Source of the DNA: Candidatus Dojkabacteria bacterium
GTDB taxonomy: Bacteria; Patescibacteriota; Dojkabacteria; SC72
Direction: 5' to 3'
Assembly: GCA_041656215.1 (NCBI GenBank)
Contig: JBBADY010000002.1
Location: forward strand, 1-53,366
Length of the DNA stretch: 53,366 bases
Of the stretch, positions 28,947-33,109 are shown in pieces; position 1 is the first letter of the stretch; each line of letters opens with the position of its first letter. A program made the translations under genes and the position numbers. The notes below the pieces were generated by a model. It was given only the letters and a program-made list of their open reading frames with translations, was not told the DNA's origin and did not search any database.

Positions 28947-29701
28947 AAAAGATATCGGAAAGAGAAGAGAAATCTTTAATATCCGTAGATATAGAGACAG
29001 AGTTCTGTTCGTATATAGTTATTGGGGTAGGTCCAATTGTTTTTAAGTAACTATGTCAACAAACTCAGTGTTGCACATTTAAAACTGAATAGTATAGTAA
29101 TTTCAATGAAGCCAATTAAGAGCATACGGTGAATGCCTTGGCGCAAAAGACCGAAGAAGGACGTGGTAGGCTGCGATAAGCCTCGGGGAGCTGTCTAACA
29201 AGCTTTGATCCGGGGATTTCCGAATGGGGTAACCCATCTAGGCTTAAACCTAGATACCATACAGTGAATTCATAGCTGTATTGGAGGAGATGCAGGGAAG
29301 TGAAACCTCTCAGTACCTGCGAGAAAAGAGAACAATAGTTTATTTCCTGAGTAGTGGCGAGCGAAAAGGAAAGAGCCCAAACCTATGTTGTGTAAGGAGG
29401 ATCCAAATCATGAGTCGCGTAGCGACAATTGAAGAGGTGAATTCGTAGTCTGCCGATCGTGCAGCATAGGCGTAGTAAGAGTTAGTTGATTAGACGGCAG
29501 TCTAGTCGAGAAGTTACAAAATTCAACTTTATTAGAACATATCTGGAAAGGTAGACCATAGAGAGTGAAAGTCTCGTATTTTAAAAGGTTGAAACTTCTT
29601 TCTAATTTCTTGAGTACCACGGGACACGTGAAATCTTGTGGGAATCAGCCAAGACCACTTGGCAAGGCTAAATATCTTTTGCGACCGATAGTGGATTAGT
29701 T

Positions 29702-29747
<46 letters not shown>

Positions 29748-31256
29748 AACTGAAACCGTGTGCTTACAAACAGTCGGAGCCGGTATATCCGGTGACGGCG
29801 TGCCTATTGAAGAATGACCCGGTGAGTTAGTTGTGTGCGGCAAGGTTAACCATGTTTATTGGGGAGCCGAAGCGAAAGCGAGTCCTAATAGGGCGAATTT
29901 AGTCGCATGCACTAGACCCGAAACCAGGTGATCTAACCATGAGCAGGGTGAAGGAATGAGAAATCATTTTGAAGGCCCGAACTCTTTAATGTTACAAAAT
30001 TATGAGATGACTTGTGGTTAGCGGTAACATGCCAAACGAACCTGGTAATAGCTGGTTCTCCCCGAAATAGCTTTAGGGCTAGCGTTGTAATTTAATCATT
30101 GGGGGTAGAGCACTGATTGGGTTTGGGGCTCGAAAGAGTACCCAATCCACTCAAACTCCGAATACCAGTGTGAATATTACAGCAGTCAGAACTAGGGAGC
30201 TAAGTTCCTACGTTCAAGAGGGAAACAGCCCAGATTGTCAGATAAGGACCCTAAATTACATCTTAGTGGGAAAGGAAGTGGAGTTTCTCAGACAGCTAGG
30301 AGGTTGGCTCAGAGGCAGCCATCCTTTAAAAAGTGCGTAAAAGCTTACTAGTCAAGAGATTCTGCACCGAAGATTCAACGGGGCTGAAGATGTATTCCGA
30401 AGCTGCAAATTTATCTATCACTTGTGATTTGATGAGTGGTAGGGGAGCGTTCTATACATGATCTACTTAGCAGTAGATACATCGCGGTGAAGGTGACCTG
30501 TAAAGAGTTGCTGGAGCGTATAGAAGTGAGAATGCCGGGATGAGTAACGTAAAGCAGGTGAAAACCCTGCTCGCCGAATGTCTAAGGTTTCCATGGCTAT
30601 GGCAGTCATCCATGGGTTAGTCGGTCCTAAGATCAGGCCGAAAGGCGTAATCGATGGACAACAGGTTAATATTCCTGTACTACTAATATCTGCAACGGAG
30701 ATTGGGAATTGAGAAAGCAAGCCCCTCATTGGTTTGGGGTGTAAGTAACAAGTTAGTTTCTTCAGGTAAATCCGGAGAAATGTTTCTACTTCGGTAGATG
30801 CAAACGAGTTACGATGCAAAGGTGACCTTCGGGAAGCCGATTTGTTGTATTAATTCTCCAGGAAAAACTTCTAGCGTGTCTACCTTCGGGTGGACTAAAT
30901 GATATTTGTAACCGTACCGCAAACCGACACTGGTGGACTGGTATAAAAGTACCAAGGCGTACGAGTGATGCGTTGTTAAGGAACTCGGCAAATTAACCCC
31001 GTACGTTCGCAAGAAGGGGGGCCTTCCATTATAGATATTTATATTTGTGGTGATGAAGGCGGCACAGAATAGGGAGGAGCGACTAGTTACCAAAACTACA
31101 GGCGCTTGCAAATTCGTAAGAAGATGTATAAGTGCTGACACCTGCCCAATGCCAGAAGGTTAAGGAAGTTTGTCAATCGTCTGTCAGATGCACTTCGGTG
31201 CTCTGATGGTGAGGAAGCGGACGACTGAAGCCCTGGTCAATGGCGGCTGTAACTAT

Positions 31257-31990
31257 GAACCAATATCGGAGTTTTCCGGTATCTTGTAGTTGTAAAATTT
31301 GGCTATATGCTGGAATATCTGAGTATTTTTAATTACTCGTTAAAGATTATTTAATCTTTTTCAGTGAAAATATTAAAATGCAGACAATCAGCAGGAAAGA
31401 TCCAAAACCTATATCTTTAGATGATGCTTCATACATAGTTGGATTTGTAGATGGAGAAGGTAGCTTTAACATCTCGTTTAAAATTCGCAAAGATTACACT
31501 AATAGAATACAAGTATATCCAAGCTTTAATATATCTCAAAAGGAGAAAAATATTCTAGTCTGGATTCAGAGTCAGCTAAGATGCGGTACTATCCGTAATC
31601 GAGGAGATGATGTTTATTACTATGAAGTGCATAATCTGAGCAATTTGAAAAATGAGATTATACCTTTCTTTAAGAAATACAAATTAAAAACTAAGAAAAA
31701 AGAAGCGTTTGAGATATTTTCTAAAACTATTGAAAGACTCTCTTCTAAGAAACTTGAATGGGAAGATATTAAAGATATCTTTAATTTAAGAGAAGAAATA
31801 GTAGTAGGTAGAAAGAGGAAATACTCTTTAGAAGATTTAGAGAAATTTTGGAAATCCTCAGAGACTACACGCCAGACCCCTCTATTAAAAGAATAGGGTG
31901 GGATGATATAGTCCGATCTGTATGGCGACATACAGAGATATATAGAAATATGTATCCAAAATCTATGCAAATAGATTAGTAACATAAATG
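31257..31990 (+). mobile_element. intron (group I-like) in 23S helix 69, after the E. coli U1917 equivalent
   Basis: Removing 31257-31990 restores ggctGTAACTAT|AACGGTCCTAAGGTAGCG. The 5' exon ends in U and the intron ends in G. Internal GTAGTT (31286-31291) can pair with exon AACTAT, giving the U:G wobble expected at the splice site. Confidence 0.75.
31378..31896 (+). CDS. single-motif LAGLIDADG homing endonuclease (intron-encoded)
   Basis: 172 aa with the motif YIVGFVDGEGSFNI. Size and layout resemble I-CreI-type homodimeric enzymes. Confidence 0.9.
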   Translation: MQTISRKDPKPISLDDASYIVGFVDGEGSFNISFKIRKDYTNRIQVYPSFNISQKEKNILVWIQSQLRCGTIRNRGDDVYYYEVHNLSNLKNEIIPFFKKYKLKTKKKEAFEIFSKTIERLSSKKLEWEDIKDIFNLREEIVVGRKRKYSLEDLEKFWKSSETTRQTPLLKE

Positions 31991-32122
31991 AACGGTCCTA
32001 AGGTAGCGTAATACCTTGTCACTTAATTAGTGACTTGCATGAAAGGTGTAACGACTCCTCCACTGTCTCGACAACGCGCTCGGTGAAATTGAAATGGCTG
32101 TGAAGATGCGGCCTACCCATAC

Positions 32123-32153
<31 letters not shown>

Positions 32154-32562
32154 CAGCTTTGCATTGAAATATGGCTTTGGATATAGAGAATAGGTGGGAG
32201 ACTTTGAAGCCGTCTCGTCAGGGATGGTGGAGTCACAATATGGAATACCACTTTTTCAACGTTTTATTTCTAACCCCTTCCGTTATCCGGAAGATGGACA
32301 GTGCATGGTGGGCAGTTTGACTGGGGCGGTTGCTTGCTAAAAAGTACCGCAAGCGCACAAAGGTCTCCTCAACCCGGATGGAAATCGGGTGAAGAGTGCA
32401 TGAGCATAAGGAGGCTTTACTGTGAGGGAGACATCCCGATCAGTTACGAAAGTAGGTTCAAGTGACCCTTTCGCAGAATGTGGAATCGCGATTGTTTAAC
32501 GGAGATAAGCTACCCCGGGGATAACAGGCTGGTGGTGCCCGATAGTTCATATTGACGGCACC

Positions 32563-32605
<43 letters not shown>

Positions 32606-33109
32606 AAGGCCCCAAGGGTTCGACTGTTCGTCGATTAAAGTGGCACGTGAGCTGGGTTCAGACCGTCGTGAGCCAGGTCGGTCTCTATCCGGTATGGGCG
32701 TTGTATATTTGAGGGATTTGACCCTTAGTACGAAAGGATCAGGGTGCGGTAACCTCTAGTGTACCAGTTGTACTACCAAGTGCATGGCTGGGTAGCTAAG
32801 TTATTTTAGGATAAGTACTGAAAGCATATAAGTACGAAACCTTTCCCAAGATTAGATATACTTGCATAGCTTGGCTATGCGGAAGGTCCGTGGGAGACTA
32901 CCACGTTGATAGGCTCTAGGTGTAAGCATAGTAATATGTTTAGCCGAGGAGTACTAATAGACCAAAAGCTTCATATATTTTTACTATAACTATTCAGTTT
33001 TGAGTGTACAAACACTCTCTAGCTCTTTAGAATTTAAAGTCCTGAAGATTACTACTAGTAATAGTGGTATTCGTCAGGCGACAGATATTTAAATGTTAGA
33101 TTTTTGTCG

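What the first reader, a model, noticed from the sequence alone, without database searches (positions are those of the whole stretch)
31257..31990. LAGLIDADG-bearing intron in 23S rRNA helix 69, at the E. coli U1917 equivalent
Excising exactly 31257-31990 rebuilds the universally conserved H69 sequence GTAACTAT|AACGGTCCTAAGGTAGCG. The 5' exon ends in U and the insert ends in G. An internal guide-like GTAGTT (31286-31291) pairs with exon AACTAT and gives the U:G wobble expected of group I P1. The 172-aa ORF carries a single LAGLIDADG motif, so it is probably a homodimer like I-CreI. From established knowledge, L1917 is a recognised group I insertion site in the Coxiella burnetii 23S gene, and rRNA insertions with homing endonucleases are common in CPR. 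H69 forms intersubunit bridge B2a, so the ribosome depends on accurate splicing. Only about 215 nt lie outside the ORF, which is a tight fit for a group I core, so part of the ribozyme may overlap the ORF.
Basis: partly seen in the sequence, partly recalled or inferred. Interest (0 to 1): 0.6.

Follow-up and report, generated by a model that had tools for sequence, protein, structure and literature searches.

The report
Group I intron in 23S helix 69
The only 23S rRNA gene of this tiny uncultured (Dojkabacteria-like, CPR) bacterium is split in helix 69 by a 734-base group I intron that carries its own LAGLIDADG homing-endonuclease gene. The feature is real and well formed, but this kind of intron is already catalogued at this very site.

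Summary
Window 31257-31990 is a 734-nt insert placed exactly after E. coli 23S position 1917. It is precisely absent from the 23S genes of same-genus genomes.

It has the full anatomy of a group I intron. There is a 9-bp P1 with a U•G pair at the 5' splice site, formed by guide GUAGUUGUA. The P/Q/R/S core elements, P3-P9 and a terminal G held by a covarying P9.0 are all present. P3, P5, P5a, P6, P8 and P9 covary across 15-24 related introns.

The window's own Rfam hit is below threshold (33.7 bits against a cut-off of 50), because a 438-nt insert in loop L6 splits the model. An ORF-less homologue in a relative scores 72.2 bits.

The 172-aa ORF is a single-motif LAGLIDADG_1 enzyme and is predicted to form a homodimer. 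Its two ends overlap the ribozyme core.

Splicing itself is not shown, because the RNA contigs were indecisive.

LAGLIDADG-bearing group I introns at site 1917 are already published for CPR bacteria, Synechococcus C9 and Thermotoga subterranea. This scan has met them in at least 20 other genomes. The finding is ordinary, so interest is low.

The parts
31248..31256 (+). End of the 5' exon (UGUAACUAU, 5' half of 23S helix 69). It is the 5' strand of P1 and ends in U1917 (E. coli numbering).
31257..31990 (+). Group I intron, 734 nt, 31% G+C against 46% for the 23S exons.
31263..31282 (+). Hairpin extending P1 (AUAUCGG / CCGGUAU, loop AGUUUU). A hairpin of different sequence sits at the same place in relatives.
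   Evidence: read from the alignments
31286..31294 (+). Internal guide sequence GUAGUUGUA, the 3' strand of P1. G31286 makes the wobble pair with U31256. There is no P2 between it and P3.
31298..31303 (+). P3 5' strand UUUGGC, which pairs with 31871-31876.
31308..31313 (+). P4 5' strand UGCUGG (in the classical 'P' element AUAUGCUGGAA), which pairs with 31388-31393.
31318..31384 (+). P5 (31318-21 / 31381-84) and its extension. P5a is 31327-31331 / 31374-31378, with 31332-33 / 31372-73, and encloses further hairpins. The AUG at 31378-80 lies between the 3' strands of P5a and P5.
   Evidence: compensatory changes in 3 of 4 P5 pairs and all 5 main P5a pairs
31386..31395 (+). Classical 'Q' element AAUCAGCAGG, which includes the P4 3' strand (31388-31393). 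It is invariant in all homologues.
31378..31896 (+). ORF of 172 aa for a single-motif LAGLIDADG_1 homing endonuclease (motif YIVGFVDGEGSF). The stop codon UAG at 31894-96 lies in the P8 3' strand.
31399..31407 (+). P6 5' strand GAUCCAAAA, which pairs with 31846-31856.
31408..31845 (+). Loop L6 insert of about 438 nt holding the body of the endonuclease gene. In the ORF-less homologue of genome G103 it is replaced by a GAAA loop.
31846..31856 (+). P6 3' strand UUUUGG(AA)AUC.
31858..31870 (+). Classical 'R' element UCAGAGACUACAC: J6/7 and the P7 5' strand (G31861, bulged A31862, G31863-A31867).
31871..31876 (+). P3 3' strand GCCAGA.
31877..31902 (+). P8 hairpin.
   Evidence: all 7 predicted pairs show compensatory changes
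31903..31914 (+). Classical 'S' element AUGAUAUAGUCC: J8/7 and the P7 3' strand (31909-31914).
31916..31917 (+). P9.0 5' side (AU), which pairs with 31988-31989 just before the terminal G.
31918..31976 (+). P9 (31918-35, GCGA loop), P9a (31937-56, GAAA loop) and P9b (31961-76, GCAA loop).
   Evidence: for P9 (5 of 7 pairs compensatory). P9a and P9b were read from the sequence and.
31990..31990 (+). Terminal guanosine (omega-G) at the 3' splice site.
31991..32008 (+). Start of the 3' exon AACGGUCCUAAGGUAGCG (3' half of helix 69 onward). Only its first two A's can pair with the U's 5' of the guide, so P10 is weak.

Best explanation
Window 31257-31990 is a mobile group I intron at 23S site L1917, in the loop of helix 69. 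The host is a Dojkabacteria-like CPR bacterium, and this is the only 23S gene in its assembly.

Inferred mechanism. The intron RNA folds into a ribozyme that lacks P2. It has an extended P1, P3-P8 with the P3/P7 pseudoknot, a branched P5 extension, and P9, P9a and P9b capped by GNRA loops. An external guanosine bound in P7 attacks after U31256 (the U•G pair of P1). The freed exon then attacks after the terminal G31990, which P9.0 holds in place. This ligates the exons and restores helix 69.

The 172-aa ORF fills loop L6 and runs into the core on both sides. It encodes a single-motif LAGLIDADG enzyme that acts as a homodimer. The enzyme cuts intron-less 23S genes near position 1917, so that repair copies the intron in (homing).

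Shown here: the boundaries, the site, the fold with covariation, homology to introns that pass the Rfam threshold, the protein family, and an intact catalytic motif. Inferred: splicing in vivo, self-splicing without helper proteins, and endonuclease activity with its target.
For: Site and boundaries:
- The insert lies after E. coli position 1917.
- It is precisely absent in same-genus genomes.

Core:
- The Rfam Intron_gpI hit covers 31773-31935 with E 1.1e-6. It matches the consensus UCAGAGACUA...GAUAUAGUCC.
- The ORF-less homologue in G103 is 74-78% identical to both halves of the window's intron. It scores 72.2 bits, above the cut-off of 50.

Structure:
- RNAalifold on the two halves found P1, P4, P5, P5a, P7, P8 and P9 independently. 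12 of 27 and 12 of 19 predicted pairs carry compensatory changes.
- All 7 distinct P3 strand pairs are fully complementary. Only 1 of 5000 partner shuffles reached this.
- P6, whose strands lie about 440 nt apart, is more stable with its own partner than with nearly all non-cognate partners.
- P9.0 covaries: AU/AU, AC/GU, AA/UU, GU/AC, UU/AA.
- Sister introns 6 nt downstream (L1923) carry guide GCCGUU, which matches their exon AACGGU, instead of GUAGUU.

Protein:
- PF00961 at 76.5 bits.
- The best solved matches are LAGLIDADG meganucleases.
- The motif GFVDGEG keeps its acidic residue.
- Homodimer model: ipSAE 0.70, best control 0.00. This mark was reached by 21 of 30 proteins solved as pairs and 0 of 23 solved as single chains. 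The runs agree in 100% of contacts and the partner pLDDT is at least 79. The interface is residues 14-27, the motif helix. The pass may come from likeness to solved dimers.

Mobility:
- Among related L1917 introns some ORFs are intact, some broken (G011, G047), one lacks the motif (G032) and one is absent (G103).

Need for removal:
- The assembly holds one 23S match only.

Literature:
- CPR rRNA inserts are stated to be removed from transcripts, and LAGLIDADG_1 ORFs cluster at 23S site 1917 (PMC11270868).
- L1917 introns with the ORF in P6 running through P7, P3 and P8, and without P2, are described for Synechococcus C9 (PMC1995217).
Against: - The window's own Rfam score (33.7 bits) is below the gathering score of 50, and the default scan missed the intron.
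- P10 is only about 2 bp.
- No experiment or decisive RNA read shows exon ligation for this organism. One RNA-library contig joins 31256 to 31991, but with only 29 nt on the shorter side, and intron-less relatives exist. Another RNA-library contig (31246-31419, no mismatches) crosses the unspliced 5' junction; it could be precursor RNA or carried-over DNA.
- The start codon has no visible ribosome-binding site and lies between two helices of the ribozyme, so expression of the enzyme is uncertain.
Confidence: 0.92

Rival explanations
1. It is a group I intron that is removed in vivo but does not splice on its own. Its folding would need a protein helper, either the encoded LAGLIDADG protein acting as a maturase or a host factor.
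For: P10 is weak, P2 is absent, and the intron is very A+U-rich at 31% G+C. Both ends of the ORF lie in the core. LAGLIDADG maturases are known, and PMC11270868 notes that homing endonucleases may have maturase activity.
Against: Relatives with broken or missing ORFs (G011, G047, G103) keep an intact, covarying ribozyme. The enzyme is therefore not needed in cis. Three GNRA-capped P9 hairpins and a branched P5 extension provide the usual RNA-only stabilisers.
Confidence: 0.05
2. The intron is not ligated out. It either stays in mature 23S rRNA, as reported for the L1931 intron of Simkania negevensis (title cited in PMC1995217), or it is cut out leaving a fragmented 23S, as with an IVS.
For: Splicing was not observed directly. 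One exact RNA-library contig crosses the unspliced 5' junction.
Against: All splice-site determinants are conserved and covary: U•G in P1, omega-G and P9.0. The ends of the insert form no long terminal stem such as RNase III substrates have (-4.4 kcal/mol against a mean of -10.0 for shuffles). The insert sits in the loop of helix 69, part of an intersubunit bridge (established knowledge). This is the only 23S gene in the assembly.
Confidence: 0.02
3. The insert is an assembly or binning artefact. On this view it belongs to another organism or to a chimeric contig.
For: The genome is a 91-contig metagenome bin with 5.24% contamination. rRNA operons are often misassembled.
Against: Contigs of 14 DNA runs from 8 studies hold 71-96% of the sampled words of the 1251-nt stretch across both junctions. 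Homologous introns sit at the same site in ten genomes of the same class (nine from the same order), flanked by their own 23S sequence. The operon is contiguous with 16S, tRNAs and 5S in a 53-kb window.
Confidence: 0.01

Closest known systems
LAGLIDADG_1-encoding group I introns at 23S position 1917 ('23IS6') of CPR bacteria (Tsurumaki et al. 2024, PMC11270868)
   Same: Same host radiation, same gene, same site, same intron class and same endonuclease family. The paper states that LAGLIDADG_1 proteins are predominantly encoded at positions 1917, 1931, 1952, 2593, 2604 and 2657.
   Different: Nothing of kind. That survey lists sites and families and characterised an enzyme from another insertion site, 23IS7 (I-ShaI). 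This particular intron's fold and ORF overlaps were worked out here.
Synechococcus sp. C9 L1917 intron (743 nt, 181-aa enzyme) and Thermotoga subterranea L1917 intron (774 nt, 168-aa enzyme) (Haugen et al. 2007, PMC1995217)
   Same: Same site, similar size (734 nt, 172 aa) and a single-motif LAGLIDADG. The ORF lies in P6 and runs through P7, P3 and P8. There is no P2, and the P5 region is complex.
   Different: Here the only in-frame start lies upstream of P4' (between P5a and P5), so the ORF also overlaps the 5' side of the core. It stops in P8 rather than P9. P1 carries an extra hairpin. I did not align these two published sequences directly.
Coxiella burnetii Cbu_L1917 (PMC4990558)
   Same: A self-splicing group I intron at the same 23S site in a bacterium.
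   Different: In the table of PMC1995217, the Coxiella intron that carries the endonuclease gene is the one at L1951. Sequence relatedness to the window's intron was not tested.
I-CreI-type homodimeric LAGLIDADG endonucleases and solved single-domain rRNA-intron enzymes (PDB 3e54, 5gkk)
   Same: One LAGLIDADG domain of about 170 aa. The predicted symmetric dimer forms through the motif helix.
   Different: The best sequence matches in the PDB are halves of two-domain enzymes such as I-SmaMI and I-OnuI (E about 1e-22). The target site and cleavage pattern are unknown.

Membership tests
Group I intron (Rfam RF00028) | P1 helix between the 5' exon and an internal guide, with a U•G wobble at the 5' splice site | tested here: met
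   Exon UGUAACUAU pairs with guide GUAGUUGUA (31286-94), including U31256•G31286. U•G is present in 15 of 15 homologues. The guide switches to GCCGUU in the sister introns at L1923.
Group I intron (Rfam RF00028) | Terminal guanosine (omega-G) at the 3' splice site | tested here: met
   G31990 is the last base. Omega is G in all but one of the L1917 homologues for which the script could place its anchors. The 2-bp P9.0 just before it covaries.
Group I intron (Rfam RF00028) | Catalytic core of P3-P8 with the P3/P7 pseudoknot and the guanosine-binding P7 | tested here: met
   The R and S elements match the Rfam consensus. P7 GACUA/UAGUC is invariant, with G31863-C31913 next to bulged A31862. P3 covaries fully and P8 covaries.
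Group I intron (Rfam RF00028) | P4-P6 domain | tested here: met
   P4 is invariant; P5 and P5a covary. Cognate P6 strands pair across the 438-nt ORF insert.
Group I intron (Rfam RF00028) | Score at or above the Rfam gathering threshold (50 bits) | tested here: inconclusive
   The window's own hit is 33.7 bits (E 1.1e-6), with the P4-P6 block skipped because the ORF splits the model. The ORF-less homologues in G103 score 72.2 and 78.8 bits.
Group I intron (Rfam RF00028) | Guanosine-dependent splicing with exon ligation | not testable with these tools
   Only contigs of RNA libraries were available. One joint, 31256>31991, has 29 nt on its shorter side and cannot be assigned to this species.
LAGLIDADG_1 homing endonuclease (PF00961) | Domain match above the curated cut-off | tested here: met
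   76.5 bits against 23.1, residues 20-117.
LAGLIDADG_1 homing endonuclease (PF00961) | Motif helix ending in a conserved acidic residue | tested here: met
   YIVGFVDGEGSF is present. The same GFVDGEGSF occurs in intact relatives and is lost in the G032 copy.
LAGLIDADG_1 homing endonuclease (PF00961) | Single-domain forms act as homodimers | tested here: met
   Model only: ipSAE 0.70 against a best control of 0.00. The mark was reached by 21 of 30 proteins solved as pairs and 0 of 23 solved as single chains. Contacts agree 100% between runs and pLDDT is at least 79. The interface is residues 14-27. Likeness to solved dimers may explain the pass.
LAGLIDADG_1 homing endonuclease (PF00961) | Cleaves the intron-less allele at or near the insertion site | not testable with these tools
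   Needs a cleavage assay. A search for palindromic symmetry in the target was uninformative.
RNase III-processed intervening sequence (IVS) of 23S rRNA | The ends of the insert form a long stem, and excision occurs without ligation | tested here: not met
   The end-to-end duplex is -4.4 kcal/mol, weaker than 498 of 500 shuffles. The site is not one of the IVS sites named in PMC11270868.

The most novel reading that the evidence does not exclude
The ribozyme lineage of this intron has moved between two sites only 6 nt apart in helix 69. The exon reads G-UAAC-UA-UAAC-GGU. The L1917 introns use guide GUAGUUGUA, while their close sisters at L1923 in related Dojkabacteria use GCCGUUGUA. A 3-nt change in the guide, exploiting the repeated UAAC, would therefore retarget the same ribozyme. 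The window's copy would be the L1917 form of such a site-hopping family. A smaller point concerns its endonuclease frame, which starts inside the core. Folding of the ribozyme and translation of the enzyme could then exclude each other.
Probability: 0.35. Interest if true: 0.3.

Novelty: already known. Interest (0 to 1): 0.12.

Why it matters
The practical value is in annotation. This 23S gene is 3.87 kb long. The intron must be removed in silico before the rRNA is used for phylogeny, primer design or ribosome modelling, and the 172-aa ORF should be named a homing endonuclease. Because the assembly has a single 23S gene and the insert sits in helix 69, the cell must depend on accurate removal, which fits what is already published for CPR bacteria. 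The finding adds one well-resolved example, with a covariation-backed fold and an ORF-less relative that defines the minimal ribozyme of about 296-300 nt. It does not open a new question.

Tried and rejected
- The default Rfam scan at gathering thresholds found no intron. Only the permissive scan did.
- RNA evidence. Four RNA-library runs were laid as contigs, and most of the intron had no cover, which is not evidence of removal. The 31256>31991 joint in X19 has only 29 nt on its shorter side. Intron-less relatives share 95-97% of the flanks, so the joint cannot be assigned to this species. The joints 31399>31853, with other letters in between, come from ORF-less relatives in other organisms.
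- The search for palindromic symmetry in the presumed target gave at best 6 of 11 symmetric pairs, centred 4 nt upstream of the site. This was uninformative.
- An IVS-like terminal stem was rejected.
- The antisense ORF 31620-31985 (121 aa) has no Pfam match. It is a mechanical frame in A+U-rich DNA opposite a conserved gene.
- No group II intron family appeared in the permissive Rfam scan, which listed all matches up to E = 10.
- My first guess of a GAGUA/UACUC hairpin after P5 was dropped in favour of the covarying long-range P5a.
- Two assignments for the base of P6 (G31399-C31856, or G31394/95 with C31856/57) could not be told apart.
- The subgroup (IB, or IC1-like as in PMC1995217) was not assigned.
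- Raghavan et al. 2007 is not held in the library, so PMC4990558 was used instead. PMC3984707 mentions neither Coxiella nor site 1917. A search for 'Cbu.L1917' found nothing.
- The count of structure pairs was not used on the 944-column alignment, to avoid typing a very long structure string. RNAalifold and scripts were used instead.

Full report
**Observation**

Rfam places a bacterial 23S rRNA gene at window 29105-32977. It is 3873 nt long against a model of 2925, and it lies in a 16S-tRNA-tRNA-23S-5S operon. The sequence reads ...GGCTGTAACTAT at 31245-31256, then a 734-nt insert that begins with G31257 and ends with G31990, then AACGGTCCTAAGGTAGCG from 31991.

A global alignment with an annotated E. 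coli 23S gene gives one 734-nt insertion, 31257-31990, directly after E. coli position 1917.

A search of 41 related genomes shows that in many of them the two flanks abut with nothing between. These include four genomes of the same genus or family (G004, G005, G006, G010). The insert is therefore an optional element with exactly these boundaries. The assembly itself gives a single 23S match.

**What it is**

The default Rfam scan reported no intron. A permissive scan of 31150-32100 gave Intron_gpI at 31773-31935 with 33.7 bits and E 1.1e-6. It matches the consensus closely at UCAGAGACUACAC (J6/7 and P7) and GAUAUAGUCC (J8/7 and P7'), and it recovers P8 and P9. The P4-P6 block of the model was skipped, and a second weak hit to that block lies at 31308-31431.

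The reason is anatomical. The classical P (AUAUGCUGGAA, 31304-) and Q (AAUCAGCAGG, 31386-95) elements lie upstream of the R and S elements, separated from them by a large insert in loop L6 that holds most of the ORF.

A relative, G103, carries the same intron at the same site without the ORF. It is 300 nt long, with P6 closed by a GAAA loop. That copy is 74-78% identical to both halves of the window's intron and scores 72.2 bits, above the Rfam threshold of 50. Removing 31408-31845 from the window's intron leaves 296 nt, which is the same size.

**Fold and covariation**

I collected ten L1917 introns and eight sister introns at L1923 from genomes of the same class, most of them from the same order. 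I added L1917 introns from other phyla.

- RNAalifold on the 5' halves found P1, P4, P5 and a long-range P5a independently. P1 has ten pairs, and the U•G pair at the splice site is present in 15 of 15 sequences. P4 is invariant. 12 of 27 pairs carry compensatory changes.
- RNAalifold on the 3' halves found P7 (invariant), P8 (all seven pairs compensatory) and P9 (five of seven pairs compensatory).
- P3 joins the two halves. All seven distinct strand pairs are fully complementary (for example UUUGGC/GCCAGA, UUAGGC/GCCUAA, UCUAAC/GUUAGA, CUUGGC/GCCAAG), and only 1 of 5000 partner shuffles reached this.
- The P6 strands bracket the ORF. With their own partner they form duplexes of -5.7 to -12.0 kcal/mol, against means of -2.2 to -5.8 with other sequences' partners. 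The cognate partner ranks first or second best in 21 of 24 cases.
- The two bases before the terminal G pair with J7/9 to form P9.0, and they covary (AU/AU, AC/GU, AA/UU, GU/AC, UU/AA). This fixes G31990 as omega-G.
- There is no P2. P1 carries an extra hairpin (31263-31282), and three hairpins after P7 end in GNRA loops.
- The sister introns at L1923 have guide GCCGUU, which matches their exon AACGGU, where the L1917 introns have GUAGUU. This is a natural compensatory test of P1.
- Relatedness of the sequences inflates all such counts. Even so, the changes occur in many helices and in several phyla.

**The ORF**

31378-31896 encodes 172 aa with one LAGLIDADG_1 domain (76.5 bits against a cut-off of 23.1). 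The best solved relatives are LAGLIDADG meganucleases, including single-domain rRNA-intron enzymes. The motif YIVGFVDGEGSF keeps its acidic residue.

A two-copy model passed the tool's mark:
- ipSAE was 0.70 against a best control of 0.00.
- The mark was reached by 21 of 30 proteins solved as pairs and 0 of 23 solved as single chains.
- The runs agree in 100% of contacts, and the partner pLDDT is at least 79.
- The interface is residues 14-27, the motif helix.

Similar dimers are solved, so this result shows likeness rather than proof.

The only in-frame start is AUG 31378, which lies between the 3' strands of P5a and P5. The frame then reads through P5', J5/4, P4' and P6 (31378-407). At its far end it reads through P6', J6/7, P7, P3' and into P8, where the stop codon lies (31846-896).

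Among the related L1917 introns, some ORFs are intact (G009, G017, G118) and some are broken (G011, G047). One has lost the motif (G032) and one is truncated (G120). In one the ORF is replaced by the L1923-type enzyme (G094), and in one it is absent (G103). This is the pattern expected of the gain, decay and loss cycle of homing endonuclease genes.

**Host and spread**

The closest endonuclease loci are in MAGs titled Candidatus Dojkabacteria (68% and 58% identity), and the genome is 0.8 Mb.

By a strict pattern, 15 of the 80 best related loci sit at L1917 with guide GUAGUU. They include Omnitrophota, Chloroflexi, Acidobacteriota, Bdellovibrionota and Chitinophagaceae MAGs.

DNA contigs of 14 runs from 8 studies (biogas, leachate, landfill, sludge, sediment, wastewater) hold 71-96% of the sampled words.

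**Splicing**

Splicing is not shown directly. In four RNA libraries laid as contigs, one contig joins 31256 to 31991, but it has only 29 nt on its shorter side. One exact 174-nt contig crosses the unspliced 5' junction. Neither can be assigned with confidence.

The case for ligation rests on four points:
- the conserved and covarying splice-site determinants;
- the single 23S gene in the assembly;
- the position in helix 69;
- the published statement that CPR rRNA inserts are removed from transcripts (PMC11270868).

An IVS-like terminal stem is absent.

**Comparison with what is known**

- PMC11270868 reports that 45% of inserts in CPR 23S genes are group I introns, and that LAGLIDADG_1 ORFs concentrate at positions 1917, 1931, 1952, 2593, 2604 and 2657.
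- PMC1995217 lists L1917 introns with single-motif LAGLIDADG genes in Synechococcus C9 (743 nt, 181 aa) and Thermotoga subterranea (774 nt, 168 aa). It describes the same architecture: the ORF lies in P6 and runs through P7, P3 and P8; there is no P2; and P5 is complex.
- PMC4990558 names Cbu_L1917 of Coxiella as a self-splicing intron.
- This scan has already met the same feature in at least 20 genomes, including the tandem L1917/L1923 pair of Dojkabacteria.

**Verdict**

The feature is a well-formed example of an already known kind, so interest is low.

Noticed in passing
L024:1041-1662 (genome G103); also L025 (G094) and L018 (G047): Relatives carry two homologous group I introns in tandem, at L1917 and L1923, separated by a 6-nt exon AACGGT. 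In G103 both lack an ORF (300 and 316 nt). In G094 the L1917 intron holds an endonuclease of the L1923 type. Earlier reports of this scan already describe this arrangement.
   Followed up: partly
window 31248-31256 and 31286-31294; sister introns in L012, L013, L014, L028, L045: The helix 69 exon has UAAC twice, 6 nt apart. The guides of the L1917 and L1923 introns (GUAGUUGUA and GCCGUUGUA) differ in 3 nt only, so a small change would retarget the ribozyme by 6 nt.
   Followed up: partly
window 31979-31984: A [U/C]AACA motif 6-10 nt before the terminal G is conserved in nearly all the L1917 and L1923 introns examined, including those from other phyla. Its role is unexplained.
   Followed up: no
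G000 contig C49 (L061:270-1620) and contig C41 (L143:834-1167): The same bin holds three more group I introns on small contigs: 94.5, 78.2 and 32.5 bits against Rfam. The two on C49 lie in tandem in one protein-coding gene. Their cores resemble the 23S intron (90% over 49 nt). The second holds a 283-aa ORF with DUF7487 and ROS/MucR zinc-ribbon matches. The contigs look phage-like and may be a phage or bin contamination.
   Followed up: partly
window 29385-29534; also 30460-30484, 30827-30844, 30875-30891, 31181-31208: After the intron is removed, the 23S gene still has about 210 extra nt relative to E. coli. About 130 nt of this lies in three blocks near E. coli positions 275-296 (domain I).
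   Followed up: no
joints 31399>31853 in RNA runs X15 and X18: RNA-library contigs from other samples carry the two ribozyme halves joined by short unrelated P6 loops. ORF-less relatives of this intron therefore occur in sludge and sediment communities.
   Followed up: no
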